Positions 2,375 through 16,613 of a stretch of DNA of 16,613 nucleotides are shown piece after piece. Position numbers and translations under genes: made by a program. How positions within the stretch are numbered: position 1 is the stretch's first letter; each line of letters begins with the position of its first letter. This stretch comes from Elusimicrobiota bacterium (GTDB lineage Bacteria > Elusimicrobiota > Elusimicrobia > UBA1565): contig JBDREN010000048.1 in the NCBI GenBank assembly GCA_043819795.1, positions 1 to 16,613 on the forward strand. The letters are read 5' to 3'. The notes beneath the pieces are model-generated. The model made no database searches, was not told where the DNA came from, and saw only the letters and a list, made by a program, of their open reading frames with translations.

Positions 2375-2419
2375 CGGCGTCAGGCATTGAGTTTCTTGAG
2401 TTGTTTGAGTAACTCCGCC
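2375..2419 (+). repeat. Family B repeat (CGGCGTCAGGCA + three 9-nt TTGAGT units)
   Basis: 41/45 identical to 9949-9993. The head also recurs at 16221-16241. Confidence 0.9.
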
Positions 2420-2427
2420 GGCCGCCC

Positions 2428-2510
2428 CCCCAACTTGAAATGCAGGATTGGCATTTCAAGTCGCGTCCCTCTTCTTTAAGATGCCAATTCGGCACCTTAG
2501 AGAATTATGC
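2428..2510. repeat. Two adjacent ORF6N-type palindromes, homologous to 10163-10209 and 11061-11095
   Basis: 2428-2474 is 40/47 identical to 10163-10209 and contains an 11-bp perfect IR (ACTTGAAATGC/GCATTTCAAGT). 2477-2510 (TAAGATGCCAATTCGGCACCTTAGAGAATTATGC) closely matches 11061-11095. Confidence 0.85.
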
Positions 2511-2562
2511 TCATCCCGGGTCAGGGGGCGGGTCCAAGCGGGCTTTTATCCTCCGGATTCGA

Positions 2563-2568
2563 TAGGAT
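2563..2568 (+). promoter_or_regulatory. Putative -10 box (TAGGAT) for a leaderless SDR transcript
   Basis: TANNNT 7 nt before ATG 2576. The same geometry occurs at four other genes in the window. Confidence 0.45.
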
Positions 2569-2575
2569 ATCTCCC

Positions 2576-4138
2576 ATGGAAGAGCGTCCCGCCTCCGACG
2601 AGAAGTCCCCCAAGGCTGATCCGGAAGACCTCCGCCGGGCGACTCGCCTGCTCGAGGCGGTCGTCGAGGACCGGCGGCTTCTGGCGGCGCTTTCCGAAGA
2701 TGAGGCCATCCGCCTCAAGGCGGCCGCGGGACGCCTGTCTAGGCCGGACCGGCTCGAGCAGATGAAGACATCCAAGCGCGCCCGGACGGCGCGAAAGAGG
2801 CGTTTGGTCGAAGTGGACCGCGCCGCTCGGGGAGAGAGCCGTATCAGAAAGGTCCGGTCTGAAAGCGTGTTCCGGGCGCCCGGACGGGTCGCCGGGGATG
2901 AACGTCCGCCCTATCGCAAGCTCAACATGCCGCGCGACTGCTACGTCTGCCATTCCTCTTTCGATAAGCTGCACTTCTTCTACGACTCCATGTGCCCCGA
3001 ATGCGCCGAGTTCAATTACGACAAACGGTTCCAAACGGCGTCTTTAGAGGGCTGGACGGCCCTGATCACGGGCGGGCGGCTCAAGATCGGCCGGCAGGCG
3101 GCGCTGATGATGCTGCGCGCCGGCGCGCGGGTGGTGGTGACCACCCGCTTCCCGCATGACGCCGCCGTGCGCTACGCGGGGGAGGACGATTACGACGCCT
3201 GGTCGGACCGGCTGCATGTCCACGGGCTCGACCTCCGGCACGCGCCCAGCGTGGAGATATTCGCCCGGTACCTGGACGCGACGCTCGGCCGGCTGGATAT
3301 CATCATCAACAACGCCGCGCAGACCGTGCGCCGCCCGCCGGGCTTCTACGCCCACCTTTTGGACCGCGAGGCGCAGGCCGCCGTCGAGCTCGGGGGCAAG
3401 GCCGCCAAGCTGCTTGAAGCTCGCGAAGCCTGCCGCGCGGCATTAGGCGGCGTCCCCGCCCTCCCCGGGGCGAAGGACGTCTCCTCGGGGAAAGGGCTCC
3501 TGGCCTGGCAGGCCGGGCTAACCGGCATCGGCATCCGCGCGGCCGCGCATCTTTCGCAGATCCCCTACTCCTATGACGACGCGGCGCTGGGCGCCGATGT
3601 CTTTCCGGCCGGCCGGCTGGACGCGGATCTCCAGCAGGTGGACAAGCGGACTCACAACACCTGGCGGATGGCTCTGGGCGAGGTCCCGACCCCGGAGCTG
3701 GTCGAAACCATGCTCATCAACGCCGTGGCGCCTTTCATCCTCAACGGCAAGCTCAAGCCCTTGATGCTTCGCAACCCTACCGGCGCTCAGCATATCGTGA
3801 ATGTCTCGGCCATGGAGGGGAGCTTCTCGCGAAAGACCAAGACCGACAAGCATCCGCACACCAATATGGCCAAGGCCGCGCTCAACATGATGACGCTCAC
3901 CTCCGCCCCCGACTACTTCAAAGACGGCATCCACATGAACGCGGTCGACACGGGCTGGGTCACCGATGAGGACCCCATGCGGGACTCGCTCAGGAAGCGC
4001 GATGAGCACGACTTCGAGCCGCCCCTGGACATCGTGGACGGAGCCGCGAGGGTCTGCGACCCCTTCTTCCACGGCCGGCTCACCGGCGAGCACCTTTGGG
4101 GGAAGTTCCTGAAGGACTACCGCCCTACCGGCTGGTAA
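2576..4138 (+). CDS. Atypical short-chain dehydrogenase/reductase with N-terminal CxxC-CxxC Zn-ribbon
   Basis: ALITGGRLKIG Rossmann motif, IIINNAAQT, IVNVSAMEG, HPHTNMAKAALNM, MNAVDTGW, and CYVC...MCPEC upstream. Start moved from 2507 to ATG 2576 because 2507 lies in the repeat and a -10 box precedes 2576. Confidence 0.88.
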   Translation: MEERPASDEKSPKADPEDLRRATRLLEAVVEDRRLLAALSEDEAIRLKAAAGRLSRPDRLEQMKTSKRARTARKRRLVEVDRAARGESRIRKVRSESVFRAPGRVAGDERPPYRKLNMPRDCYVCHSSFDKLHFFYDSMCPECAEFNYDKRFQTASLEGWTALITGGRLKIGRQAALMMLRAGARVVVTTRFPHDAAVRYAGEDDYDAWSDRLHVHGLDLRHAPSVEIFARYLDATLGRLDIIINNAAQTVRRPPGFYAHLLDREAQAAVELGGKAAKLLEAREACRAALGGVPALPGAKDVSSGKGLLAWQAGLTGIGIRAAAHLSQIPYSYDDAALGADVFPAGRLDADLQQVDKRTHNTWRMALGEVPTPELVETMLINAVAPFILNGKLKPLMLRNPTGAQHIVNVSAMEGSFSRKTKTDKHPHTNMAKAALNMMTLTSAPDYFKDGIHMNAVDTGWVTDEDPMRDSLRKRDEHDFEPPLDIVDGAARVCDPFFHGRLTGEHLWGKFLKDYRPTGW

Positions 4139-4174
4139 GCGGCGTCCCCACGCTTAACATAATCGGAGAAAGCT

Positions 4175-5821
4175 TCAACAAATGGACTTTATCCCGTCCG
4201 GGGAGGGAGGCTCCGCCTTGTAGAGGAACCCTCCGCGCTTCTCGATGTAGGCGTCTTCGCCGATGGTCTCGAGCTCGCGGATCTGATCCGCCAGATGCTC
4301 GACCACGTGCCGCGTCTGCCACCGCAGATGGACGTAGAATACCGCCGTCATCGCGGCAATGGCGAAGTGCCTCGGCCCGTGGAGCAAAGCGTAGGCCGCG
4401 GTCGCCAGGAAGGGAAAGAGCGCGGAGGGACGCGCCAGATAGAGCGCGAACACCTTGATCATCGTCCAGGCCATCCCCGGCAAGAGGCGCAACGGGGGCT
4501 TGTGGCGGGTATGGGGACGATACCGGCGGATGAAAACGCGCACCCGGCCAAAGAACTCGCTCGGTGAATAGACGCGGGCCAGCATAGCGCGGTATTCCCT
4601 AAGGATCTCCTGTCGCGGACGAAGGGGAGTGAAGTTCAGGCCGGCGGTCATCTGATCGAACTCGCCGGGCCTGATGGCCGCGCCTCGCTTCCGGACCAGC
4701 AGACGGCCTTCCCGTATCAGACGGTCGTCGAGTTGAGTGCCGGGCAGCGAGGTAAGCAGTCCGATCATCGCGGTGGAGATCCCGCTCTCCTCAAGACACG
4801 ACGCGATCGCTTCGGCGGCCCCGGGCCGCTCATTATCGAAGCCCAGGATGAAGCCCCCCATCACCATGATCCCGGCCTCGTTCATCCGGCGGACGCACTC
4901 GGAGATCGGGATCAGCGAGTTCTGGGACTTCCCCGCCCCTCTCAGGAGCTCGGGGTCCGGGGTCTCTATCCCGATGAAGACGTAGCGGAAATCGCAACGC
5001 CTCATCAGCTCCAAAAGTTCGGCATCCCGCGCCAGGCCCAAGGTCGCCTGGGCGGAGAAGTAGAACGGCCATCCCCGGGCTTCGGACCACTCGATGATCG
5101 CGCGCAGCAACCGCTTGACCGCGTTGCGCGGGCCGATGAGATTGTCGTCCACGAAGTCCAGGTGGCCGCGATAGCCGGACTCGTAGAGAGAGTCGAACTC
5201 CGCCAGGAGCCGCTCCGGGGTCTTGGTCCGGGGTTCGCGGCCGAAGAGCTCGATGATGTCGCAGAACTCGCAGTTGTTCGGGCATCCCCGCGAGAACTGG
5301 ACTCCCAGATAGAGATAATCCTTGACCCGCGCCAGATCGAAACGCGGCTTCGGACTCCGCTCCAGATCGGGACGAACGCCGTCGGTCCCAAAGCTGCCCG
5401 ACCGGGCCCCGGACTCCCAGGCCGCCACGAATTTCGGTATGGAGACTTCCCCCTCTCCCGACACGATGAAGTCCGCCTCCTGATAGACCTGGGGTTGGTG
5501 CGTCGCGTCGGGGCCTCCCACCGCCACCGGCTTGCCCTTGGCCTGCGCCCGCTTGATGATGCGTACCGTCTCCAGCTGCTGGGTGATCATCCCGCCGGTC
5601 ATCACCAGATGCGCCCATTCCAGATCGGCGTCCGAGAGGTCCGAGACGTTCAGGTCCACCAAGCGGCACTCCCAGTCCGCCGGCAGCAAGGCGGCCACGG
5701 TGAGCAGGCCCAGGGGAGTGGTCTGGTACTTGAGCCCGGCCACGCGATAGGCGCTCGCGAAGTTCCAGAAACTGAACTCCGAGAACTTGGGATATATGAG
5801 AAGGCAGCGGGTCTTCGCCAC
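4175..5821 (-). CDS. Cobalamin-binding radical SAM protein (DUF4070-type)
   Basis: N-terminal B12-binding region (PLGLLTVAALLP...AVGGPDAT...GEGE), SRGCPNNCEFC (CxxxCxxC), FVDDNLIG, FIGIET, GFILGFD. Start placed at GTG 5821, 6 nt after TATCCT; ATG 5857 is an alternative. Confidence 0.9.
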   Translation of the reverse strand: MAKTRCLLIYPKFSEFSFWNFASAYRVAGLKYQTTPLGLLTVAALLPADWECRLVDLNVSDLSDADLEWAHLVMTGGMITQQLETVRIIKRAQAKGKPVAVGGPDATHQPQVYQEADFIVSGEGEVSIPKFVAAWESGARSGSFGTDGVRPDLERSPKPRFDLARVKDYLYLGVQFSRGCPNNCEFCDIIELFGREPRTKTPERLLAEFDSLYESGYRGHLDFVDDNLIGPRNAVKRLLRAIIEWSEARGWPFYFSAQATLGLARDAELLELMRRCDFRYVFIGIETPDPELLRGAGKSQNSLIPISECVRRMNEAGIMVMGGFILGFDNERPGAAEAIASCLEESGISTAMIGLLTSLPGTQLDDRLIREGRLLVRKRGAAIRPGEFDQMTAGLNFTPLRPRQEILREYRAMLARVYSPSEFFGRVRVFIRRYRPHTRHKPPLRLLPGMAWTMIKVFALYLARPSALFPFLATAAYALLHGPRHFAIAAMTAVFYVHLRWQTRHVVEHLADQIRELETIGEDAYIEKRGGFLYKAEPPSPDGIKSIC

Positions 5822-6043
5822 GCACCAAGGATAGCTCGCGGGGGAGGTTTGCGCCATCCCTACATGCCCCCAGCTCTGGTCGGCCCTGCCCTGCTGACAA
5901 AAAAGAAATCCCATATTCCCCGATACGCCATTCCGCATTCATTCGCAGCGCTCTGTCCGCAGCAAGTCAGCGCCGCTGCCGGCCCGATGTTTTAGAGGAG
6001 TTGACGAAAGTGCGTTCGGCTCCAGGGACAACGCGCGGCTCTT

Positions 6044-7312
6044 CTAGACTTCCCGTACCGCCTGTCCGAAATGCAGCCGGATCCAGCCCAGCTCCCGGGG
6101 GGAGGGGCACCACAGGGTCCCCGGCTCGAGCCCGGTCCCCCGGCGCAGCGAGTAGGGGACCGTTCCCAGCCGCTCGTGCGTCGCGCGGACCTCGGCCAGG
6201 CTGGCCGTGCCGCCGCCGGGCGTGAGGAATAATGGGGCCGCTTCCAGGCTTTCCCGTTCGGGGCCGCCCGCCTTGGCCGCCGCGAGGTTCGCGGCGCACC
6301 GGTGGAGCCAGTCGGTGATGAGTCCGGCTCGGGCCAGGGGCCGCTCTTGGAGCTCTTCGGCGTCCCAGCCTTCGGGCGTTCCCAATAGGTTCTGCCATGA
6401 GCCGCGCGATGTCCAGTCGGCGAAGGCCGCCGCCGGCTCCAGCCGCTCGGGGAGGCCGGTGAAATCGCGTTCATGCCCGGCGAGGACCTTCCGAAGCAGC
6501 CGGAGCTCCTCGCGGCCGAGCAGGCGGAGCAGCTTGCCCCAGCGCGCTTCGCGCACGACATGGCTCTGCGCGATATCGAGGCTCAGCTTGGCGTCTTCGA
6601 CGAGCCCGAGTACGGGCAGGGGCAGCTCGAGGGTCGTCTCCTGGACGAGCACGCCGTGGCGATAGATCCAGAGACGGCTCTCGCCGTGCTCGCTGAACGG
6701 CCAAGGGCGCTGCCAGCCGCGCGCCTTTCCCTGCGCGAAGGCCGCCGCGTCCGGGGGGCATGGGAGTCTCGGCAGCTCGGCGTCGTCGATGAGCACCGGG
6801 CACGGCGCCAAGGCGCAGACCCGTTCCCGGGCGAGGAGGCCGCGCCAATCCGGCGCCCGGGAGGCCCGTCCCCAGCGCACCGACACCACAGTGTCGGCGT
6901 CGCTCCCCTTCTCGGGGGAGACCGTCTCCCCGCCCAGCTTCGCGAGCTCCAGCCTGACGCGGGCGCCGCCTTCCCCCGAGACCACGGTGATCGACGCGGG
7001 CTCGGAGCGCAGGGCCGTGAGCAGCCCGAGCCCCAGCTCTTTGAGCCGGCCGTCGCTTCCCCCGCCGAGCACGCCGTCATAGACGCGATCGAGGTCCTCG
7101 GCGGTGAAGGCCTTTCCTTTGAAGCGGATCGAGAAGCCGCCGGCTTTTCCCGAGAGCCGGACCGACGAGGCGCCGGCGGCGATGGCGCAGCGCAGCCACG
7201 ACAGCGCGAAAAAGCCGGCCTCCGGGACCCGGTAGTCCTTGAGGATCTCAAGGGCGCGCTCCCTGGCGACCCGCAGACCGCCCGATCCGACGAATACCCC
7301 CTCCTCTTCCAC
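6044..7312 (-). CDS. Hypothetical protein with degenerate GHKL/HATPase-like N-terminus
   Basis: C-terminal 422 aa of the listed 697-aa ORF; the upstream part is antisense to the SPFH gene. Contains RERALEILKDYRV...SWLRCAIAAGA...FKGKAFTAEDL...LKELGLGLLTAL...ITVVS. GTG start 6 nt after TATGAT. Confidence 0.7.
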   Translation of the reverse strand: MEEEGVFVGSGGLRVARERALEILKDYRVPEAGFFALSWLRCAIAAGASSVRLSGKAGGFSIRFKGKAFTAEDLDRVYDGVLGGGSDGRLKELGLGLLTALRSEPASITVVSGEGGARVRLELAKLGGETVSPEKGSDADTVVSVRWGRASRAPDWRGLLARERVCALAPCPVLIDDAELPRLPCPPDAAAFAQGKARGWQRPWPFSEHGESRLWIYRHGVLVQETTLELPLPVLGLVEDAKLSLDIAQSHVVREARWGKLLRLLGREELRLLRKVLAGHERDFTGLPERLEPAAAFADWTSRGSWQNLLGTPEGWDAEELQERPLARAGLITDWLHRCAANLAAAKAGGPERESLEAAPLFLTPGGGTASLAEVRATHERLGTVPYSLRRGTGLEPGTLWCPSPRELGWIRLHFGQAVREV

Positions 7313-7360
7313 GCTTACATCATAGGAAAGAACGCGGCGGGCATGCCGGGATCGTTTGTG

Positions 7361-7389
7361 TTGACATCCCAGGAGGCGAGAGCTAGACT
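7361..7389 (+). promoter_or_regulatory. Sigma70-type promoter (TTGACA-17-TAGACT) for a leaderless SPFH operon
   Basis: Perfect -35 TTGACA at 7361-7366, 17-nt spacer, TAGACT at 7384-7389, ATG 7 nt downstream at 7397. Confidence 0.75.
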
Positions 7390-7396
7390 TACCCTT

Positions 7397-8383
7397 ATGA
7401 GCATAATGTTCGGATGTGTCGTCGGATTCATCGCCTGGTTCCTGGTCATGTACCTTGTCGCCGGGCTCTATACCGTGGACCAGGACGAACGGGCCGTAAA
7501 GACCTCGTTCGGCCGCGCTAAGCGCATCGAGGGAAGGACCACCCTCGACGACCCCCTCTCGGAGAGCCTTCGCCCCGATGAGCGGGAACGCTATAACTAT
7601 CCGGCGCTCGAGGTCATCGGCCCCGGGGGGCCGTACTTCAAATGGCCCTGGGAGCGGATCCACAAGGCCAAGATCTCCACCCAGACGATGAATATGGCCC
7701 GGGACCTCGAGGACCGCAGCGCCAACAAGAACGGCACGGAGCTCGAAGCGGTGACCAAGGACCAGCTCAACGTCGGGCTGACCGGCGACATCCGCTTCCG
7801 GATCTCCGAGAAGAACCTCTACGCGTATCTGTTCGCCGTCAAGAACCCGATCGTGCACGTCATGGGCTACTTCGTGGCGATCCTGCGCGAGCGCATCGCC
7901 AACTTCGAGGCGGAGCGCAAGCCCGCCGCCGCGGCCGACCCTTCCGACGCCGGGGAGGCCTCGGGCATCTCGATCAACGACCTGCGCAAGAACCTGCGCG
8001 CCATCAACGACCACATGGAGGCTGAGTGCGTTTCCGCCGAAGCCCGCTACGGCGTGGTCTTCGAGGCGTCGCTGATCACGGGCATCGACCCGCCCCCGGA
8101 GGTGGACTCGGCGCTGGCCGCGATCAACACGGCGCACAACGAGGTGTCCTCCGAGATCAGCCTCGCCCGCGCCGCGGCCGACCAGCGCATCGTCGAGTCC
8201 AAGCGCGCCGTCGAGATCGAGACCCTCAAGGCCCAGGCCGAGGTCGAGCCGCTCAAGACCTTGGCCGCCCAGCTCCGCGAGTTCAAGCGGGCCGGCGGCG
8301 ACACGCTGAAGCTCTACCTAAGGAACCTGCGCCTCGCGCTCTACTCCAAGGCGCGGACCGTCGTCATGGAGTCACAGTCATGA
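7397..8383 (+). CDS. SPFH/band-7 domain membrane protein (first of a pair)
   Basis: N-terminal TM helix, GLYTVDQDERAVKTSFG, GPYFKWPWERI, AVTKDQLNV, ITGIDPPPEV, coiled C-terminus. Confidence 0.88.
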   Translation: MSIMFGCVVGFIAWFLVMYLVAGLYTVDQDERAVKTSFGRAKRIEGRTTLDDPLSESLRPDERERYNYPALEVIGPGGPYFKWPWERIHKAKISTQTMNMARDLEDRSANKNGTELEAVTKDQLNVGLTGDIRFRISEKNLYAYLFAVKNPIVHVMGYFVAILRERIANFEAERKPAAAADPSDAGEASGISINDLRKNLRAINDHMEAECVSAEARYGVVFEASLITGIDPPPEVDSALAAINTAHNEVSSEISLARAAADQRIVESKRAVEIETLKAQAEVEPLKTLAAQLREFKRAGGDTLKLYLRNLRLALYSKARTVVMESQS

Positions 8384-9306
8384 TCGCCCCGGGATTGATC
8401 GCCGCCGTAGCGGTGTTCGTCGGCTGCTTCATCGCGGTGCCGGTCGCCCTCGGCATCCTGCAGGCGCTGGGCGTCTACACGATCGTCCGCGAGCGCGAGA
8501 GCAAGGTGTTCATGCTCTTCGGCAAGGTCGTCGGCAAGATCGACGAGCCGGGCCTGCACTTTTTGTGGGAGGAGCTGGGCTGGAAGGCGCTGATCGTCAA
8601 TCCGCTGGGCTCTGTGCGCGTCGTCGACATGCGCCTGGACCAGCAGTACCTGCGCAGCCGCCCGGTGAACTCCGAGGAGGGCGCGCCGATGGGCATCGGC
8701 GCGTGGTACGAGATGTTCGTCAGCGATCCGGTGCCGTTCCTGTTCCGCAACACGGACCCGCGCGGCTCGCTGTCCTCGAACGTCACCAGCACCGTCGTGC
8801 GTTGTCTGAGCAACATGCCGCTCGACCAGATGCTCGAGGACCGCCACCACATGAGCCAGACCGTCCGCTCGGAGGTGTCCCCCAAGTCGCACGAATGGGG
8901 CTACCAACTCGGCTCGACTTACATCCGCAAGGTCCACTTCCGCGACAAAGGCATGATCAAGCAGATCGAGGAGAAGGTCGTGAACCGTCTGCGCCAGGTC
9001 ACCTCGGCGATCAAGCAGGACGGGTCCAACCAGGTGCAGGTGATCACCTCCGCCGCCGAACGCAAGGCCGCCGTGGCCTTCGCCCAGGCCTCCGCGATCC
9101 GCCCGAACCTCGTCGGCGCCGCCCTGGGCGAGATCGGCAAGGACCCCGACATCGCCGCGGCGCTCTTCGAGATCCTAGAGATCGAGCGCCTTGGCGACGG
9201 GGAAGCGTCCCTGCTGATGGTCCCTCCGGGCAATCAGCTGCTGTGGAGCCAGCTCCTCGCGGCCAAGCAGGATCCGCCGCCCAAAGCTTCCAGCCTCTTC
9301 GGTTAA
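8380..9306 (+). CDS. SPFH/band-7 domain membrane protein (second of a pair)
   Basis: N-terminal TM, YTIVRERE...LFGKV...EPGLHFLW, VDMRLDQ, WGYQLGSTYIRKV. ATGA start/stop overlap with the upstream gene. Confidence 0.88.
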   Translation: MIAPGLIAAVAVFVGCFIAVPVALGILQALGVYTIVRERESKVFMLFGKVVGKIDEPGLHFLWEELGWKALIVNPLGSVRVVDMRLDQQYLRSRPVNSEEGAPMGIGAWYEMFVSDPVPFLFRNTDPRGSLSSNVTSTVVRCLSNMPLDQMLEDRHHMSQTVRSEVSPKSHEWGYQLGSTYIRKVHFRDKGMIKQIEEKVVNRLRQVTSAIKQDGSNQVQVITSAAERKAAVAFAQASAIRPNLVGAALGEIGKDPDIAAALFEILEIERLGDGEASLLMVPPGNQLLWSQLLAAKQDPPPKASSLFG

Positions 9307-9329
9307 AGAAGGCAGAAGCAGAAGCAGAA

Positions 9330-9356
9330 GGCGTCAGGTGTTAACTTTGTTAACTA
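9330..9356 (+). repeat. Family A repeat (GGCGTCAGG TGTTAACTT TGTTAACTA)
   Basis: Exact reverse complement of 11217-11243, and over 25 bp of 13301-13325. Confidence 0.92.
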
Positions 9357-9475
9357 ACCCGGGGTGGCCGAGCTTATAGACGCCGGCGCGGGATTTGCCT
9401 AGATAGCGGGCTAGATCCTCCCAGCGGTAGCCTTGCTCCTCCGCCGCAACGACGGCCATCTTCCTGGCGGCTGTA
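9334..9475 (-). pseudogene. 3' remnant of an HTH-tailed (DnaA-C-like) protein, probably an IS200/RAYT-like Y1 transposase
   Basis: AARKMAVVAAEEQGYRWEDLARYLGKSRAGVYKL is HTH-like and runs into repeat A, ending LVNKVNT*. No HUH domain is present, so the family assignment is inference. Confidence 0.5.
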
Positions 9476-9516
9476 TTTGGCACATAAATTGCTCCATTTG
9501 GTTCAGGGGGGCTCAT

Positions 9517-9996
9517 ATGACTAAATGGAAAACGCTCTTTCTCGGCCCCGTGGTCTACGTCGTCGGGCTCGTGCTCATGCTCGCGGCGTTGGTGTCGGCC
9601 TGGAGGCTGATGCTGTTTCTCGAGCCCTACCTGCCTTCCCTGATCGCCGCGGCCGAGGTCATAGACGACCACTGGCTCTTCTGGTTCGTAATCGCGTCCC
9701 TGCCCGCCGTGACCGCGGGCTTGCTCGCCGCGCCCCCGGAAGGACCCGGTCGCTGGGCCGCGGCCTTCGGTTCGGGACTGCTCTCGACCGCGCTCCTCGT
9801 GCTGCCGGCGGCGGCGCTGGTGTGGGTCATGCTGCCGGGCTACCTGGATCATTCCGCCGGCTCGGACACTATGATGGGCACCGCGGTCATCGGGTTTTTC
9901 GCCGCCGGGATGACCATGTCCGGTTTGGGCGGCCTATGGCGTTATAAGCGGCGTCACGCATTGAGTTCTTCGAGTTGTTTGAGTAACTCCGCCTAA
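9517..9996 (+). CDS. Hypothetical 4-TM membrane protein (159 aa)
   Basis: AGGGGG SD-like site before ATG 9517 and four hydrophobic segments. The last 15 codons are encoded by repeat B. Confidence 0.7.
   Translation: MTKWKTLFLGPVVYVVGLVLMLAALVSAWRLMLFLEPYLPSLIAAAEVIDDHWLFWFVIASLPAVTAGLLAAPPEGPGRWAAAFGSGLLSTALLVLPAAALVWVMLPGYLDHSAGSDTMMGTAVIGFFAAGMTMSGLGGLWRYKRRHALSSSSCLSNSA
9949..9993 (+). repeat. Family B repeat
   Basis: CGGCGTCACGCATTGAGTTCTTCGAGTTGTTTGAGTAACTCCGCC, 41/45 identical to 2375-2419. Confidence 0.9.
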
Positions 9997-10073
9997 CGTC
10001 TCCGGGAGGGCGCCATACTTGGCGCCACCGAATCGGCGCCGACCGGCATTCTACGACTCACCCCCCAGCAAGT

Positions 10074-10092
10074 CCCCTCTGGTTAATAAAGT
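10074..10092 (-). repeat. Headless family A fragment (CCCCTCTGGTTAATAAAGT)
   Basis: Exact 19-bp match to 13504-13522 and one mismatch to 13293-13311. Confidence 0.8.
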
Positions 10093-10110
10093 CGGAACAC
10101 ATGACGCCAT

Positions 10111-10137
10111 CTTGAAGTCACAATTTGTGACTTCAAG
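10111..10137. repeat. Perfect ORF6N-type palindrome
   Basis: CTTGAAGTCACAA-T-TTGTGACTTCAAG, 13-bp arms. Confidence 0.9.
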
Positions 10138-10401
10138 TCCCAGGGCCGCGCGGCGGTCTCCGCCCCAACTTGAAATGCCAGATTGGCGCTTTAAGTCGCG
10201 CCACTCTTCGGGCGTCAGCTGGAGCATGAAATCCGGAGGGAATCTCTCCTGGTTTCTTTTTACGGCCCGGTTCAGGGCCCCGGGCGCGACTCCGTACATG
10301 CCGGCCAGATGCCGATCCAGCAGGACTCTGCGTCCGCGTATTAGGAGGATGCGGCTCTCGATCCGCTCCACGGGGATGGGGGGTCTCGTGGGCATCTTTC
10401 C

Positions 10402-10908
10402 CTACTCCCGCATATACGAGCGGAACCCCATTCTGGTTCCGGCTTCAAGTAAATGCCGCCGGGTCTCGCTAAGCCGGGCTTGCTTGAGCCCGCGCTCAAG
10501 CTGTGCGATCTTGCGGGCCAACTCCTTATGCCCAGCAATGACCTCTCGCAGCTTAACAAAGGCCCTGACGACGAAAACGCCCACCTCGATGGCTTTGGGC
10601 GAGTTAAGGACGCTGGCCGCCATGATGGCACCGTGTTCCGTGAAGGCGAAGGGTAGGGCCTTCGCGAACTTCAGCTTCTTCAGGTGGTCGCAATTTGCGA
10701 TCACCTCGGCCTTCTCGCGGGCGGAGAGCTGAAACATGAAGTCCCCGGGGAACCGGACCCGGTTGCGCTTCACCTGCTCATTCAATCGACGCGTCGGTAC
10801 CCCATAGGCCTCCGCAAGGTCGGCGTCTATGATGACCTTTTCGCCCCGGATCAGCAAAATCCGTTGCTGAATCCCGCCGATTTTTACCAGAGCCTTTGAA
10901 GGGGCCAC
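10402..10908 (-). CDS. ORF6N-domain (KilA-N-like) DNA-binding protein
   Basis: RILLIRGEKVIIDADLAEAYGVPTRRLNEQVKRNRVRFPGDFMFQLS...VIANCDHL...LPFAFTEHGAIMAASVLNSPKAIEVGVFVVRAFVKLRE...ELARKIAQLE...RMGF. GTG 10908 is the chosen start and is uncertain. Confidence 0.88.
   Translation of the reverse strand: MAPSKALVKIGGIQQRILLIRGEKVIIDADLAEAYGVPTRRLNEQVKRNRVRFPGDFMFQLSAREKAEVIANCDHLKKLKFAKALPFAFTEHGAIMAASVLNSPKAIEVGVFVVRAFVKLREVIAGHKELARKIAQLERGLKQARLSETRRHLLEAGTRMGFRSYMRE
10682..10706. repeat. ORF6N-internal palindrome
   Basis: AGGTGGTCGCAA-T-TTGCGATCACCT, 12-bp arms with one mismatch. Encodes VIANCDH. Confidence 0.8.
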
Positions 10909-10977
10909 GTTTTCAGAATCCCTCACCGCGGCGCTCGGTGAACGCAAGCGGCATGCGGCTCGAGAGTTTGAGGGCCT

Positions 10978-11007
10978 GGAGGTGGTCACTCATTTGTGAC
11001 CACCTCC
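10978..11007. repeat. ORF6N-type palindrome upstream of the ORF6N gene
   Basis: GGAGGTGGTCAC-TCATTT-GTGACCACCTCC, 12-bp perfect arms. Arms resemble 10682-10706. Confidence 0.85.
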
Positions 11008-11061
11008 TCGCGCGCCTTCTCGGCGACCATTAGCATACGCTCATCCATCCGCCAGGTTTCT

Positions 11062-11082
11062 AAGGTGCCAATTTGGCACCTT
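11062..11082. repeat. ORF6N-type palindrome
   Basis: AAGGTGCCAA-T-TTGGCACCTT, 10-bp perfect arms. Homologous copy at 2478-2498. Confidence 0.85.
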
Positions 11083-11216
11083 TAAAGAATTATGCGCCCC
11101 GCTTGTACGAATGAGAGGCTCGATCGGTTCCCGCTGACGTCTTGCCGTTCGCGGAGGACCCGAAGATGGGATTAGATGGCTTCATGAGCCGCTGCCGGCC
11201 CGATGCCTCCAGCGAC

Positions 11217-11244
11217 TAGTTAACAAAGTTAACACCTGACGCCG
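11217..11244 (-). repeat. Family A repeat
   Basis: TAGTTAACAAAGTTAACACCTGACGCCG; 26 bp identical to 13301-13326. Confidence 0.92.
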
Positions 11245-11320
11245 GCCTAGGTCCAATAACGGCGAACAAATAGGCACTTTGGGTAATGGGAATCGGAGCG
11301 GTTTGGGGTACGATGAAGTG

Positions 11321-13273
11321 ATGCCCGCTCTTCGGCGGCTGACGGCGCTTTCTCTGTCCATTGCGCTCATCCTGGCGCAGTGCCAGGGAGCCTTCGCCGC
11401 GATCCGCGCCGTTGTCCCGGTCAAGACCGTAGGGCCGGCGGTGCCGGCGGCCGCGATAGGCGGCATCGCCGGACTCCACCTAGTCGGGACACCCAACTCT
11501 TCGATGAGGCTCGCCCGGACCCTCGCGAGCGCTCTGCCTTCCGCCGGTATCGGGCCGCGGCCGCGGGCCGTCGGGGCCCACCTTCCCGGATCCCCGGCGC
11601 TCCCGGCCGGCATCGCCGCGCGGCGCGCCGCGTCGAAGCCGCTTATTCCGGCGCATGGGCAGCAAGACGAGCGCGGTAGACCGCGCACCCCGCTTTCGGC
11701 TCTTGAGCGTCTCGCCGTCCCGGCGCGATTGGCCCTCGCGGCGCCGAATTCCTTGAGCGGGGACCAAGTCGCGCGCATGGCCGCCGTGTTCGACGGCGGC
11801 GCGCGCAATAGCGGCCGAAGCTTCACCGCCGCCCCGCCGGCCGGTCCGCGGAACGCGCCGGCGAGCCGCCTCTCGCGCCCGAGCGCCGCGGCCCGCCGCG
11901 GCCCGGCCGAGGAGGGGGCCGCGCTCGAACTCAAGGCCCCGCCTTCCAAGAAGAAGCCGCTCTCGCTCGGGAGAATCCTCAAGGAGAACCGCTTCCTGGT
12001 CGCGGCCGTCGGGGGCGCCGCCCTCGGCTTCGCGGGCGTCAACCTCGGCGCGCTTCCGGTCCTAAGCCTCACGCCCGGGCTGTTCTTCGGCGCCTTGCCC
12101 TGGCTGGCCGCTCCGTTCATCGGCCTAAACGTGTTCAAGTCCTTCTCGCACTACAGCGTCGTGAAGGAATCCCGCACTTTGCTGGGCTTCCTCGTCATCA
12201 CCACGGCGGGCCTCGTCATCTCGGCGGGCGTCACCATGTTGTTGACGGCCCTGCTGCCCGTGGTCGCCCCGGCGAAGTTCGCGGCCGCGGCCATCCCCGG
12301 CCTGGCGACCGGCGGCTTCAGCCCCATGCAGTTCATGCTCCCGATCATAGGCGCGTTCACCGGCGCGGCGCTCATCTATAAGCGCGCGCGCAACGTGAAC
12401 AACGGCTCGGCGAAGCGGGATTACGGACCCGGCTGGAAGGGGGCGCTCTTGCGCGTCTTCGACAAGGCGGCCGGGCTCGTGGTCAACGGCCGCACCGCGC
12501 CTTTCCTGGAGAAAGCCGGCGAGCTGGGCGAGAAGGGGACAGCGCTCATCAATAAGGCCTTCCCGAGGTTCATCGACATCGTGGGCATCCCCGCCGTGGC
12601 GGTGCTGCTCTCGATGACCATGGCCACGGGGGGGCTCGGCCTGCTGAACTCTTTCGGGGGGTATTACATCACCGCCCTCACGGGCATGGGCATCGGCTTC
12701 GCCGCTCTGCTGGCCGCCTACGCCGCTTTCGGCGCGCGCGCCAAGGACTTCAAGGAGATCCTCAAGGCCGCGCTGGTCGGCTTCAGCATCTCGTCGAGCA
12801 GCGCGACGATGCCCACGGAGAAGGAGGCCCTCAAGGCGATGGGCGTCTCGCGCAAGACGCGCGACACCGTGGTGCCCCTGGGCGGGGTGTTCAACATGTT
12901 CGGCACCTCGCTCTACATGGGCCTGACGGCGTTCTACGCCCTATCCATGTTCGGCGCGGCGCCGACCCTGGCGCAGTATTTCAACACCGCCCTCACGGTC
13001 CTCGTCATCGCCATGGGCGCGCCCGGCATACCCGCCTCCAACATCACCCTGCTCGACCCCGTCCTCCGCCAGACGGGCCTGCAGTCCGGGCAGATCCACA
13101 AGGTCTACACGATGATCCTCCCCGGCGACCGCATCCTGGACATGGTGCAGACCGCCCTCAACGTCCTGGGCGATATGCTCCCCGCCGTGGAGCAGGACCG
13201 CAGGCGCCTGCGCTACGTCCGCGTGAAGCGCATCCGGGAGATCCGCCGGAAGCGCGCCGAATCGGGGCGTTGA
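11321..13273 (+). CDS. Dicarboxylate/amino acid:cation symporter (DAACS/SDF family) with long Ala/Pro-rich N-terminal extension
   Basis: FSISSSSATMP (HP1), PLGGVFNMFGTSLY (NMDGT-like), GAPGIPAS (HP2), DRILDMVQTALNVLGD (TM8). Signal-like N-terminus from ATG 11321, 6 nt after TACGAT. Confidence 0.88.
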   Translation: MPALRRLTALSLSIALILAQCQGAFAAIRAVVPVKTVGPAVPAAAIGGIAGLHLVGTPNSSMRLARTLASALPSAGIGPRPRAVGAHLPGSPALPAGIAARRAASKPLIPAHGQQDERGRPRTPLSALERLAVPARLALAAPNSLSGDQVARMAAVFDGGARNSGRSFTAAPPAGPRNAPASRLSRPSAAARRGPAEEGAALELKAPPSKKKPLSLGRILKENRFLVAAVGGAALGFAGVNLGALPVLSLTPGLFFGALPWLAAPFIGLNVFKSFSHYSVVKESRTLLGFLVITTAGLVISAGVTMLLTALLPVVAPAKFAAAAIPGLATGGFSPMQFMLPIIGAFTGAALIYKRARNVNNGSAKRDYGPGWKGALLRVFDKAAGLVVNGRTAPFLEKAGELGEKGTALINKAFPRFIDIVGIPAVAVLLSMTMATGGLGLLNSFGGYYITALTGMGIGFAALLAAYAAFGARAKDFKEILKAALVGFSISSSSATMPTEKEALKAMGVSRKTRDTVVPLGGVFNMFGTSLYMGLTAFYALSMFGAAPTLAQYFNTALTVLVIAMGAPGIPASNITLLDPVLRQTGLQSGQIHKVYTMILPGDRILDMVQTALNVLGDMLPAVEQDRRRLRYVRVKRIREIRRKRAESGR

Positions 13274-13285
13274 GCCCCGGCCCCG

Positions 13286-13326
13286 GACCGGGCCCCTCTG
13301 GTTAACAAAGTTAACACCTGACGCCG
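13286..13326 (-). repeat. Family A repeat with extended inner flank
   Basis: GACCGGGCCCCTCTG-GTTAACAAAGTTAACACCTGACGCCG, starting 13 nt after the symporter stop. Confidence 0.92.
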
Positions 13327-13496
13327 CTCCTCTTGGCGCTCCGACTTGGGCTGGTCGTTCGATGGGAGCGCTTTGTATCCTTCACCCTGAAACCAAGCTT
13401 CACTCGCAGAGATTGATGCCCCGCTACCCCGATATATACGACTTACCTTCGTGTAAGTTCCCCCCGAAATCGCTTGAGTCTCGTTTTCGGGGGCTA

Positions 13497-13522
13497 GACC
13501 GGACCCCTCTGGTTAATAAAGT
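13497..13522 (-). repeat. Headless family A fragment abutting repeat C
   Basis: 24/26 identical to 13286-13311. Confidence 0.82.
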
Positions 13523-13524
13523 GG

Positions 13525-13593
13525 ATCTCAGGATTGCGGGGGCGAGGCGTGGTCAAAAGTCAAACAAGTCACAAAAGTCATAGCCTGTCACCG
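13525..13593 (-). repeat. Family C repeat (CGGTGACAGGCT + 9-nt TGACTT units on the minus strand)
   Basis: 13525-13587 is 62/63 identical to 16282-16344. Confidence 0.93.
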
Positions 13594-13615
13594 TTACCGC
13601 GGAACCCGGCGCCGC

Positions 13616-16129
13616 TTAGAAAGCGGCGACCGTGACCGGAAGGACCTCGTAGGACGGCTCCCCGGTACCCAACTGTCCCATCTGGTTGTCTCCCCAGGCC
13701 CAGACGGCCCCGTCGTCCTTCAAGGCGAGCGAGTGCCGGGCCCCGCCGGCGACGGCGACGACGTCGGTCAAATCCCGCACCTGGACCGGCGCGTACCTGT
13801 GGGTAATGGTCCCGTCTCCCAGCTGGCCCAGGTGATTGTACGACCAGGTCCAGACGGTGCCGTCGGATCTGATCGCCATGGCGTGCAGCCTGCCCCGGCC
13901 GAGCGCGGTGATATCGGTCAGGTTGAGGACCTGCACCGGGCTCCATCTCTGGATGTCCGTCCCGTCGCCCGTGCGGCCGTGCTGCCCCCACGACCAGACC
14001 GTGCCGTCGGACTTCCGGGCGAAGCCGTAGTCCCAGCCGCCGGAGATCTCCTCCACATTATTCAGGCCGTCCACCGGGACCGGTCTGGCCTGGTCCCCAA
14101 GGTACCCGATCCCCAATTGGCCGTAGTCGCAGTTTCCCCAGCCCCACAGGCTACCGTCGCTCTGCTGGCCGAAGTTGTGATAATACCCGATCCCGATCAT
14201 CGCGATATCGCCGAGGTAGCCGCTTCCGCCCGGCGCCAGGACCTGGACCGGCGTATGCCTGTCGGTCCGGGTGCCGTCCCCCAGCGTGGCGTAGCGATTA
14301 TATCCCCAGTTCCAGACGGCCCCGTCGGATTTGAGCGCGACCGAATGATAATCCCCGCCGCCCATCGCGACGACGCCGCTTAAACCGGGCAGTTGGACCG
14401 GGGAATGTCGATTGGTGGTGGTCCCGTCGCCCACTTGCCCCCGGGTGTTCTGTCCCCAAGCCCATACGGAGCCGTCGGCCTTCGCCGCGAAAGCATGATT
14501 GGTGCCGGTGGCTAGGATGGCCGGATGGGACAGCCACGACAGCTGGACCGGCGTGAACCGGTTCTCGTTCGTGCCGTCGCCCAATTGCCCCTGGGTGTTC
14601 TGCCCCCAGCCCCAGACGGAGCCGTCGGTCTTGATGGCGAGCGAGAAATGATCTCCGCTGCGGATGGCGGCGACATCGTCGAGGCCGGGGATCCGGACGG
14701 GGAGGACCTTGGCCCCGCTCTGGCCGTTGCCCAGCTGGCCCCAGAGGTTGTTTCCCCATGCGAGGATGCCGCCGTCCTCTCCGATGGCGAGCGTATGGTA
14801 GCTGCCGGCGGCGAGCGCCGCGGCGTTGTCCACGCCGGGCACGGGGACCGGGACGCGGCGCCTCTTGGTCGTGCCGTCGCCCAGCTGCCCGTAGTTGCTC
14901 CTTCCCCATGTCCAGACGCCGCCGGCGCCGTCCAGGGCCGCGGAATGGACCGTCCCCGCGGCGATGGCGGCGACGCCCGGGAGGCCGTGCGGCTGGATGG
15001 GAGTGTTCCTGTCATCGGACGAGCCGTCGCCCAGAGCGCCCTGTGCGTTTTCGCCCCACGCCCATACGGTGCCGTCCGCTCTTAGGGCCAGGGAATGCTG
15101 GTCTCCGCAGGCGATGGAGACGATATCGGTCAGACCCGCGACCTGGACCGGAACATATCTGTCGGTGAAGGTCCCGTCGCCCAATTGTCCGCTTCTGTTC
15201 AAGCCCCACGCCCATACGGTGCCGTCCGCCTTGAGGGCCAGGGAGTGCGATTGCCCGGCCGCCACGGCCACGGCGTTGTCCAGACCGGCCACTTGGACCG
15301 GGACGTCGCTGCCGGCCGTCGAGCCGTCGCCGAGCTGCCCCCGCTGGTTGTCTCCCCAGGCCCAGACCGAGCCGTCGGCGGCCGTGGCGAGGGAGTGCAG
15401 GCGCCCCGCGGCGACTCCGACGGCATTGGAGAGGTTGGCCACACGCACCGGCACGTAGCTGGCGTCATCGGACCTGTCGCCCAATTGGCCCTGGTAGTTG
15501 TATCCCCACGCCCAGGCCGTGCCGTCGGCCTCGACGGCGAGGGAATGGTTGCGCCCGGCCGAGAACGCGGTGACCTCCGACAAGCCGCTGACCTGCACCG
15601 GCGTGACCGAAAAATCAATAGAGTCCGCTCCCAGCTGCCCCTCGCGCCCGTATCCCCAGGCCCACAGCGTGCCGTCGGACTTAAGCGCGAGGGTGAACTG
15701 CTCTCCGCCGGAGAGCGCGGTGACCTCGTTGGTGAGTATCCCGATAAGCGCGCTGGCGTCCTCCTGAGCCACCTTCTTCCCGGCCTGCGCGTTCAGGGCG
15801 CTCACAAAAGCTCCCAGGATGTCCGCCCCGGCCTTGGCCATATTCCCGCCGTGCTTGGCGTCGCCGGATTGGTAATCCGCCTCGGCGGTCTCCAGCTTCT
15901 CCCGGGCGGCCCGCAGCTTCGCGTCCAGGCTCCCGGCGGTCCCCTTGGGAATGTCCATGGAGCCCAGGGCGTCGATGAGGCGGTCCACTCTCTGGCGCAG
16001 CCGGACGACCCCCTGTTGATCCTGCGGCGGATCGACGGACTCGGTCGCGCCCATGCCGAGCACGGTCAATAAAAGTCCGGCGGACAGCCCAAGAACGATC
16101 AGGGACTTCCCCGTCTTCATCTTCTTCAT
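13616..16129 (-). CDS. Secreted RCC1-repeat protein (14 repeats, two 7-bladed propellers) with N-terminal helical FIMAH-like domain
   Basis: Signal peptide, helical SLDAKLRAAREKL...AFVSALNAQAGKKV segment, then 14 HSLAxxxDGxVWxWGxNxxGQLGDG..PVQV repeats. GGAGG SD site. Confidence 0.93.
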   Translation of the reverse strand: MKKMKTGKSLIVLGLSAGLLLTVLGMGATESVDPPQDQQGVVRLRQRVDRLIDALGSMDIPKGTAGSLDAKLRAAREKLETAEADYQSGDAKHGGNMAKAGADILGAFVSALNAQAGKKVAQEDASALIGILTNEVTALSGGEQFTLALKSDGTLWAWGYGREGQLGADSIDFSVTPVQVSGLSEVTAFSAGRNHSLAVEADGTAWAWGYNYQGQLGDRSDDASYVPVRVANLSNAVGVAAGRLHSLATAADGSVWAWGDNQRGQLGDGSTAGSDVPVQVAGLDNAVAVAAGQSHSLALKADGTVWAWGLNRSGQLGDGTFTDRYVPVQVAGLTDIVSIACGDQHSLALRADGTVWAWGENAQGALGDGSSDDRNTPIQPHGLPGVAAIAAGTVHSAALDGAGGVWTWGRSNYGQLGDGTTKRRRVPVPVPGVDNAAALAAGSYHTLAIGEDGGILAWGNNLWGQLGNGQSGAKVLPVRIPGLDDVAAIRSGDHFSLAIKTDGSVWGWGQNTQGQLGDGTNENRFTPVQLSWLSHPAILATGTNHAFAAKADGSVWAWGQNTRGQVGDGTTTNRHSPVQLPGLSGVVAMGGGDYHSVALKSDGAVWNWGYNRYATLGDGTRTDRHTPVQVLAPGGSGYLGDIAMIGIGYYHNFGQQSDGSLWGWGNCDYGQLGIGYLGDQARPVPVDGLNNVEEISGGWDYGFARKSDGTVWSWGQHGRTGDGTDIQRWSPVQVLNLTDITALGRGRLHAMAIRSDGTVWTWSYNHLGQLGDGTITHRYAPVQVRDLTDVVAVAGGARHSLALKDDGAVWAWGDNQMGQLGTGEPSYEVLPVTVAAF

Positions 16130-16185
16130 CGTCGCCTCCGGTGACCGGCGGGTGGATCTCTTAAAGCTTTTGACCCTCTTGAGTT

Positions 16186-16214
16186 TATATAGCCGTAAAT
16201 CCAGCCCCTGGCAA
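16186..16214 (-). promoter_or_regulatory. Possible sigma70 promoter for the RCC1 gene (TTGCCA-17-TATATA)
   Basis: Minus-strand TTGCCA, 17-nt spacer, imperfect -10, about 57 nt upstream of the ATG. Confidence 0.3.
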
Positions 16215-16220
16215 GGCCGG

Positions 16221-16241
16221 CGGCGTCATGCATTGAGTTCT
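16221..16241 (+). repeat. Truncated family B repeat (head plus one unit)
   Basis: CGGCGTCATGCATTGAGTTCT, 20/21 identical to 9949-9969. Confidence 0.8.
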
Positions 16242-16253
16242 GTCTCGGAGTCT

Positions 16254-16345
16254 CGGTGTCAGGCTATGACTTTTGTGACTTATCTCAGGATTGCGGCGGC
16301 GAGGCGTGGTCAAAAGTCAAACAAGTCACAAAAGTCATAGCCTGA
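16254..16345. repeat. Inverted doublet of family C repeats (REPIN-like)
   Basis: Perfect 23-bp IR: TCAGGCTATGACTTTTGTGACTT (16259-16281) and AAGTCACAAAAGTCATAGCCTGA (16323-16345). Confidence 0.9.
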
Positions 16346-16613
16346 TAATCATATAGAGATCCCCTCCCACAGGTTGTATTGTTTCGTTGCAAGACGAACA
16401 TTCCAACCCAAGGAGGGGACTGATGAAATTATACGTAGGAATCGACCTGCATTCCAACAACAGCGTGCTGGTAATCTTGGATGAACATGATCGCATCGTA
16501 TACGAGCGGCGTCTACGAAATGAACTGCCGCTTATTTTGACGGAGCTGGCGCCGTACCGAGAGAAGGTCGAGGCGATAGCCGTGGAGTCAACGTACAATT
16601 GGTACTGGCTCGT
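16346..16613 (+). mobile_element. IS110-family insertion sequence, left end (runs off the window)
   Basis: Similarity to repeat C stops abruptly at CCTG(A), the sequence becomes AT-richer, and a transposase starts about 77 nt later. The exact end is uncertain by 1-2 nt. Confidence 0.85.
16423..16613 (+). CDS. IS110-family transposase, N-terminal DEDD RuvC-like domain (partial; absent from the ORF track)
   Basis: MKLYVGIDLHSNNSVLVILDEHDRIVYERRLRNELPLILTELAPYREKVEAIAVESTYNWYWL contains the GIDLH and AVEST motifs. AAGGAGGGG SD site. Confidence 0.93.
   Translation, partial: MKLYVGIDLHSNNSVLVILDEHDRIVYERRLRNELPLILTELAPYREKVEAIAVESTYNWYWL

What the first reader, a model, noticed from the sequence alone, without database searches (positions are those of the whole stretch)
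2375..16345. Three repeat families with one shared grammar punctuate gene boundaries: a candidate gene-shuffling system
Seen: A = GGCGTCAGG-TG-TTAACTTTG-TTAACT (9330, 11244 rc, 13326 rc; headless pieces at 10074 and 13497). B = CGGCGTCAGG-CA-TTGAGTTTC-TTGAGTTGT-TTGAGT (2375, 9949, partial 16221). C = CGGTG(A/T)CAGG-CT-ATGACTTTT-GTGACTTGT-TTGACTT (13593 rc, 16254, 16345 rc). All have a similar head, the same 2-nt spacer and 9-nt-period T(G/A)A(C/G)TT units in the same register, but different unit sequences. They are not palindromic like classical REPs and lie mostly at gene edges. Inference: a conserved cut or strand-transfer site (head) plus family-specific iterons read by the HTH of cognate enzymes, used to insert or shuffle accessory DNA in an integron-like manner.
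Basis: partly seen in the sequence, partly recalled or inferred. Interest (0 to 1): 0.9.

Follow-up and report, generated by a model that had tools for sequence, protein, structure and literature searches.

The report
Repeat ends of TIR-flanked tyrosine transposons
These repeats are the ends of a named but never tested kind of small mobile element (TIRtron), copied about 170 times in several variants across this bacterial genome, mostly as plain insertions between genes rather than as an integron-like gene-shuffling system.

Summary
The repeats are real. They are terminal inverted repeats (TIRs) of TIRYT elements (HUH/Y1 nuclease plus DnaA-like HTH; Di Nocera 2013, Quentin 2018 subclass 2.1). 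The genome holds 171 copies (control 1). B and C each bracket their own intact TIRYT gene on other contigs, as do families D and E; A has only HTH-tail relics, one at window 9334-9483. 44 short inverted dimers (35-151 bp) behave like MITEs, without target duplication. Details I did not find in print: unit sequence co-varies best with the HTH recognition helix (60 elements); 39 of 310 ends carry short duplications breaking inside the head; an IS1111-type element whose RNA guides match the head sits in 8 of 8 heads, including 16345. Integron-like shuffling is not supported: 7 testable sites in relatives are plain insertions or lie beside genes present without TIRs, and the two integron integrases are on TIR-free contigs. 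Three cases hint that ends sometimes carry neighbouring DNA. This scan noted TIRtrons, and their end repeats, before on other DNA.

The parts
2376..2414 (+). Family-B TIR (head plus three units), unpaired
   Evidence: near-identical to the TIRs around the TIRYT gene at C140 (95% over 39-40 nt)
2416..2501 (.). Palindromic scraps resembling 10151-10209 (81%) and 11059-11085 (85%, inverted); possibly an internally deleted copy of the B-TIR/ORF6N stretch
   Evidence: origin inferred
9330..9357 (+). Family-A TIR, 23 nt after the SPFH stop; 3' end of a relic TIRtron
9334..9483 (-). HTH-only tail of a family-A TIRYT (relic, no HUH domain)
   Evidence: tblastn E 0.005 to the B TIRYT tail; HTH_23 E 0.0018, below cut-off; similar relic at C170
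9950..9988 (+). Family-B TIR forming the last codons of membrane-protein ORF 9517-9996
10051..10989 (-). Two ORF6N genes (neighbours, not part of the element)
   Evidence: Pfam PF10543
10067..10092 (-). Headless family-A piece with A-type inner sequence
11216..11243 (-). Family-A TIR; homology to two relatives stops at its head
11324..13273 (+). SDF-family transporter gene between two directly oriented A TIRs; found without TIRs beside it in G003, G008 and G002
13264..13325 (-). SDF tail, A inner sequence and family-A TIR; recurs as the right half of the 116-bp dimer C90:51000-51115
13497..13522 (-). Headless family-A piece fused to a half C dimer
13525..13592 (-). Right half of a family-C dimer; head 23 nt from the RCC1-repeat gene stop
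16222..16240 (+). Truncated family-B TIR
16241..16254 (+). Outer flank shared with the C-dimer copies at C90 and C224, with a short imperfect duplication running into the head
16255..16345 (+). Family-C inverted dimer (MITE-like); 95-98% copies at C26, C90 and C224
16346..16613 (+). Left end of an IS1111-type (IS110 family) element inserted in the C head; transposase ORF from 16423
   Evidence: full copy at C90 hits PF01548 and PF02371

Best explanation
A, B and C are ends of TIRtrons and of their non-autonomous offspring. Each family belongs to one TIRYT enzyme: an HUH/Y1 nuclease with a C-terminal DnaA-domain-IV-like HTH. Shown by sequence: each intact gene sits between two inverted copies of its own family; most other pairs are 35-151-bp inverted dimers; there is no target duplication; copies favour the DNA just past stop codons. 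Inferred: the HTH binds the family-specific AT-rich units as duplex DNA (chromosome or hairpin stem), and the HUH domain nicks at or up to about 12 nt outside the shared head. Rejoining via a 5'-phosphotyrosine to a free 3'-OH then copies the dimer, often with a few flanking bases, to a new intergenic spot. Abortive rounds leave short flank-plus-head duplications. Copies land near older copies and attract IS elements, above all an IS1111 guided to the head. That builds repeat-dense mosaics such as 9330-16613. Host genes are bystanders as a rule.
For: Cognate genes: B at C140:10328-11270, C at C198:15093-16023, D at C102, E at C96. Closest solved structure TnpA_REP 4ER8 (E 2.9e-7), weaker DnaA domain IV (E 0.009). 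64 of 112 related loci have paired head-bearing TIRs. Unit similarity tracks the recognition helix after removing core similarity (partial r 0.179, permutation p 0.001; top of all sliding 9-aa windows, mean 0.019, SD 0.058). No consistent target duplication seen at 53 inverted pairs (read by eye). Duplications of at least 7 nt ending inside the head: 39 of 310 ends against 10 of 3381 head-like non-TIR sites; the inner break peaks after head nt 6-7, and 21 of 39 have no microhomology. Related copies share at least 4 nt of outer flank in 11 of 34 pairs against 1% of unrelated pairs. Empty or TIR-free syntenic sites. TnpA_REP cleaves 5' or 3' of its REP and does strand transfer (PMC8266576, passages).
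Against: No TIRYT has been tested biochemically, so nicking and HTH binding are inferred. No intact family-A (or G) enzyme is in the 90%-complete assembly. Only 13 of 60 related elements show a strong 9-nt period, and 35 show none. Only 1 of 52 metagenome TIR ends had a duplication. 4 of 6 IS1111 right junctions have duplications beside them, so some may be IS1111 scars. The co-variation is modest and kin are not independent. 64 of 171 copies are unpaired, which a pure dimer model does not explain. The reads laid on the window were too shallow to show excision.
Confidence: 0.78

Rival explanations
1. TIR ends routinely capture and move neighbouring host genes (one-ended or composite transposition), so TIR-dense regions are cassette arrays.
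For: The C90:51000-51115 dimer joins sequence like window 9330-9389 (81%) to 13264-13325 (89%). It includes 14 nt of the SDF tail shared with G003, so two A ends 4 kb apart were probably joined and copied. Homology upstream of SDF stops at the 11243 head in two relatives. In G025 a ~610-bp unit (aspartic-protease gene plus TIR) is tandemly doubled with a border 7 nt outside the head, where congeners have other genes. Sites cluster: 59 of 122 have a neighbour within 5 kb against 25 expected. SDF and the RCC1-repeat gene each lie between directly oriented copies.
Against: No whole gene was found moved with TIR borders. Seven sites are plain insertions or lie beside genes that congeners carry without TIRs. 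C219's long pair holds a DDE transposase, not cargo. The G025 slot also varies in congeners without TIRs. There is no paralogue enrichment beside TIRs. The general pattern had 0 hits in viral contigs.
Confidence: 0.15
2. The copies are now mainly regulatory or structural sites (operators or terminator-like hairpins) bound by domesticated TIRYT HTH domains, and no longer move.
For: Heads hug stop codons and dimers fold into strong hairpins. One TIRYT (C72) has a degenerate HUH motif and only one clear TIR. HTH-only relics persist.
Against: Near-identical dimer copies sit at unrelated loci. Sites are empty in relatives. Four enzymes keep HUH and Tyr.
Confidence: 0.1
3. The head-anchored duplications and local mosaics are made by the IS1111 element or by replication slippage, not by TIRYT.
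For: The IS1111 core covers head nt 5-7, the same place as the break peak; 4 of 6 right junctions have duplications.
Against: The same duplications occur at 24 of 114 TIRtron ends from many phyla and 6 of 33 ends in genus g11, where no IS was seen in the head. Some extend to head nt 11-14. 21 of 39 lack the microhomology that slippage needs.
Confidence: 0.12

Closest known systems
TIRtron / TIRYT (Di Nocera, De Gregorio, Rocco 2013, PMC3733652; passages and section 16 read)
   Same: Tyrosine-transposase gene between long TIRs; gene-specific TIR families; dispersed singles, dimers and clusters; G-rich end motif GGGGWSAS; several TIRYTs per genome.
   Different: Heads here are mostly GG(C/T)GTCAGG; about eight families and 171 copies. 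The text read describes no head-plus-9-nt-unit layout, no end duplications and no IS targeting (Figure 9 and supplements not seen).
TnpA_Y1 subclass 2.1.2 (Quentin et al. 2018, PMC6006769; abstract and passages read)
   Same: NHFH and YIHLNP motifs, 276-305 aa, C-terminal Bac_DnaA_C/HTH_23/HTH_28-like domain, no REP hairpins.
   Different: That paper doubted the HTH reads the ends, because the head does not resemble a DnaA box. Here the inner units, not the head, co-vary with the recognition helix.
REP/REPIN-RAYT (TnpA_REP groups 2 and 3; PMC8266576 and PMC5581495, passages read)
   Same: Single-copy HUH enzyme with many intergenic inverted doublets; cleavage outside the repeat; target for IS110-family elements.
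   Different: No GTAG guide or hairpin in a single unit; specificity seems to come from an added HTH reading tandem units.
IS1111-family elements that target repeats (ISPa11 to REP, ISKpn4 to attC, IS4321 to Tn21 TIRs; PMC11187229, passages read)
   Same: 3' non-coding region, sub-terminal inverted repeats 7 and 3 nt inside the ends, guide segments matching both target strands.
   Different: The target is the TIRtron head shared by four TIR families; two IS variants split GGTG and GGCG heads 8 of 8.
Integrons (IntI, attC cassettes; features recalled)
   Same: Repeats at gene 3' edges; some genes lie between directly oriented copies.
   Different: No linked IntI, mixed orientations, no cassette found moved.

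Membership tests
TIRtron/TIRYT (subclass 2.1) | HUH/Y1 tyrosine-transposase gene with intact HUH and Tyr | tested here: met
   NH(F/I)H and YIHLNP in four genes; PF01797 hits. Not in the window itself, which has only an HTH relic.
TIRtron/TIRYT (subclass 2.1) | C-terminal HTH (Bac_DnaA_C, HTH_23 or HTH_28-like) | tested here: met
   Best hits Bac_DnaA_C E 1.9e-6 and 0.002, HTH_23 E 0.004, all below Pfam cut-offs; DnaA domain IV chains in PDB at E 0.009
TIRtron/TIRYT (subclass 2.1) | Gene flanked by long TIRs instead of REP hairpins, each gene with its own family | tested here: met
   B at C140, C at C198, D at C102, E at C96. Family A lacks an intact gene in the assembly.
TIRtron/TIRYT (subclass 2.1) | GGGGWSAS-type end motif | tested here: met
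   Family D has GGGGTCAG; A, B and C differ at position 3 only; the same head across phyla
TIRtron/TIRYT (subclass 2.1) | Dispersed single, dimeric and clustered TIR copies | tested here: met
   171 copies, 44 short dimers, clustering
TIRtron/TIRYT (subclass 2.1) | Enzyme binds and cleaves its TIR | not testable with these tools
   No biochemistry found for this subclass in searches
GTAG/CGTC REP (REPtron) | Single unit is a short palindrome with a GTAG or CGTC tag | tested here: not met
   Single B and C units barely fold; no GTAG tag
Integron | IntI integrase linked to the repeat array | tested here: not met
   Two IntI over cut-off at C133 and C91; neither contig has a TIR; no integrase among the 12 window proteins scanned
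Integron | Single-gene cassettes exchanged at the repeats | tested here: not met
   7 sites plain or TIR-independent, none with a moved whole gene; no same-species genomes were available
Integron | attC bottom-strand hairpin with R and L boxes | not tested
   No attC model was run
IS1111 group (element at 16346) | DEDD transposase, sub-terminal IRs, 3' non-coding region with target guides | tested here: met
   PF01548 and PF02371; ends and 3' region; guide segments co-vary with targets in four genomes (read by eye)

The most novel reading that the evidence does not exclude
TIRYT families form a set of orthogonal, HTH-addressed nicking systems whose ends sometimes act one-ended or in distant pairs, copying neighbouring host DNA. 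TIR-dense regions such as window 9330-16613 would then be slow gene-capture and reshuffling zones, fed further by an RNA-guided IS1111 aimed at the shared head.
Probability: 0.15. Interest if true: 0.75.

Novelty: new member of a known kind. Interest (0 to 1): 0.4.

Why it matters
Subclass 2.1 is the second-largest group of Y1 HUH proteins (14.9% of strains in PMC6006769), and I found no biochemical study of it. This genome offers four intact cognate enzyme-TIR pairs with one shared head and different units. That is a ready swap experiment for the open question of what the DnaA-like HTH reads, and the duplication footprints predict where to look for the nick. It also adds TIR heads to the repeat targets of RNA-guided IS1111 elements. 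The integron-like reading would matter far more but is not supported.

Tried and rejected
Reads and contigs: only one low-coverage run held part of the window (0.24 of words); no joint at a TIR was among those shown, and 17 more were not displayed. Uninformative. Synteny against other genera of the family: it breaks almost everywhere regardless of TIRs, so only two C130 sites were usable. Exact family-A pattern: 0 in metagenome contigs; with 2 mismatches, 3 of 100 other genomes of the order. General pattern: 34 metagenome stretches, none near-identical to this genome, and 0 viral. Long inward pairs as cargo transposons: C219 is a dimer split by a DDE transposase, and C130/C135 holds another; C230 (4.6 kb) is untested. 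G366 sites C59 and C23 are variable and unresolved. Paralogue enrichment beside TIRs: none (0.235 against 0.228). Excision footprints made of two fused heads: 8, 0, 0 and 0 for four patterns, not followed up. Target-site duplications: none seen. No structure prediction was run. Literature searches for later TIRYT work gave only the 2013 and 2018 papers; most subscription journals are not in the library.

Full report
Observation. The window is contig C48 of a 4.99-Mb, 66.8% GC, 90%-complete genome. Earlier scan notes call it Elusimicrobiota (not tested beyond related record titles). The shared grammar gives 6 window hits against 0.0 in 300 simulations. An iterated 27-nt profile finds 171 copies genome-wide against 1 in the reversed genome. 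By nearest reference motif: A 34, E 29, G 28, B 26, C 25, A/B hybrid 10, D 4, H 3, unassigned 12. 44 short inverted dimers (35-151 bp, 37 of one family) exist, and 64 copies are unpaired. The two dimers folded gave long hairpins; single B and C units did not. With my own gene calls (3926 genes), 157 of 164 copies lie outside genes, and 56 of 151 heads are within 30 nt of a stop against 14% expected.

What they are. PF01797 finds 7 matches in the genome: five intact 276-305-aa genes with an HUH/Y1 core and a C-terminal HTH, plus a broken IS200-like gene. Four of the five are bracketed by inverted copies of one repeat family each: B at C140, C at C198, D at C102, E at C96; the fifth (C72) has one clear TIR. 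Family A has no intact gene in the assembly, only HTH tails at window 9334-9483 and at the end of contig C170. This is the TIRtron/TIRYT of Di Nocera 2013 (PMC3733652; passages and section 16 read), equated with subclass 2.1 by Quentin 2018 (PMC6006769; abstract and passages). Such genes occur in 97 of 301 genomes of the phylum. 64 of 112 loci examined have paired TIRs with the same head (L048 and L049 left out as duplicates of phylum loci). A general TIR pattern hit 8 of 31 relatives.

Who reads the units. For 60 elements with paired TIRs and proteins of at least 260 aa (L026 and L113 dropped as mis-registered), TIR-unit similarity correlates with the HTH recognition helix after removing core similarity (partial r 0.179, p 0.001). 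That helix is the top-scoring of all sliding 9-residue windows (mean 0.019, SD 0.058); the linker before it gives 0.105. Kin are not independent and the effect is modest. It does bear on Quentin's doubt, which rested on the head not resembling a DnaA box: the inner units are the better candidates. A strict 9-nt period is a feature of this clade (13 of 60; 35 show none).

Footprints at the head. No consistent target duplication was seen around 53 inverted pairs. Exact tandem duplications of flank plus the first bases of the head occur at 9 of 163 ends in this genome, 24 of 114 TIRtron ends elsewhere and 6 of 33 ends in genus g11. The control is 10 of 3381 head-like non-TIR sites. The inner break peaks after head nt 6-7, the outer point lies 3-12 nt outside, and 21 of 39 lack microhomology. 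Two nested cases keep the outer point and vary the inner one. Related dimer copies share at least 4 nt of outer flank in 11 of 34 pairs (not independent) against 1% of unrelated pairs. Against: only 1 of 52 metagenome ends shows a duplication, and 4 of 6 IS1111 right junctions have one. The simplest reading, inferred from HUH chemistry (PMC8266576 passages), is a nick near the head, a 5'-phosphotyrosine, and rejoining to a free 3'-OH. Which of the two points is the enzyme's cut is not resolved.

IS landing pads. The element at 16346 is IS1111-type (family features from PMC11187229 passages). All 8 left junctions in the genome lie in a TIR head at CC-TGA, and 6 of 6 right junctions resume the head. 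One variant sits in C and G heads (4 of 4), the other in A, A/B and B heads (4 of 4). Two segments of its 3' non-coding region (C90:49498-49503 and 49517-49523) match the two target strands. The matching segments change with the target in relatives G007, G021 and G025 (read by eye). A second IS sits in an A unit at four contigs, and two DDE elements split other A dimers.

Gene shuffling. TIR sites cluster: 59 of 122 have a neighbour within 5 kb, against a mean of 25 and a maximum of 43 in 1000 simulations. Neighbouring genes are not paralogue-rich; low-GC3 genes are 20% against 12%. No same-genus genome exists, so tests used relatives. Two C130 sites are empty and syntenic in G003. The G300 TIRtron is a plain insertion relative to G365. 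G366 sites C118 and C38 are syntenic in congeners. At two C39 sites the flanking accessory genes are present in congeners without TIRs. Two further G366 sites are unresolved. Both integron integrases are on TIR-free contigs. Three hints point the other way. (1) The C90:51000-51115 dimer appears to join window 9330-9389 to 13264-13325, including 14 nt of SDF tail conserved in G003. (2) Window 2376-2501 looks like a deleted copy of the B-TIR/ORF6N stretch. (3) G025 has a tandem protease-plus-TIR unit bordered 7 nt outside a head. None shows a whole gene moved to a new place. Laid contigs were too shallow to test excision.

Verdict. A real feature and a new member of a known but untested kind. 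Searches found no later TIRYT study. Figure 9 and the supplements of the two main papers were not seen and may show the unit layout. The scan has noted TIRtrons, their end repeats and their fixed layout before; those notes are leads, not support. Interest 0.4.

Noticed in passing
L304-L310 (G001): A related IS1111 sits at 7 of 7 fetched junctions in a different repeat with a GGGAC-type head and inner units, possibly another TIR family; in G007 it sits in a CGTC-type palindrome.
   Followed up: partly
L145 (G013:C4:43883-44770): In G013 a TIRYT gene with one TIR lies directly downstream of the SDF transporter gene, which in the window is flanked by A TIRs.
   Followed up: no
L002 (G000:C72:12718-13635): A TIRYT with a degenerate HUH motif (GHAQ) and one clear TIR. 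Many phylum loci of about 300 aa also lacked paired TIRs, which may point to a conserved, domesticated clade (not tested).
   Followed up: no
window 10108-10137, 10157-10196, 11059-11085, 2431-2501: Palindromes inside or beside ORF6N genes that read as the same short peptide on both strands; similar ones occur in relatives.
   Followed up: no
L220 (G286:C25): An ORF6N gene inserted with an approximately 50-nt duplication of the upstream gene end and no TIR, at a slot that differs in most g11 genomes examined.
   Followed up: partly
G000 C128:440-784, C209, C90:48086-48338, C226:29455-29743: Internally deleted TIRtrons that keep mostly the HTH-coding tail; such tails could act as competitors if expressed.
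   Followed up: no
window 137-2140 and 13616-16129: Secreted repeat proteins (LamG/TSP3; RCC1 repeats). Several TIRs sit right after paralogous secreted-protein genes, though no overall paralogue enrichment was found.
   Followed up: partly
G000 C133:1888-2832 and C91:675-1592: Two integron integrases above the TIGR02249 cut-off; their arrays were not examined.
   Followed up: no
L317 (G000:C80:34150-35367): The second IS that lands in A units encodes a 405-aa transposase that looks ISL3-like (label recalled, not scanned).
   Followed up: no
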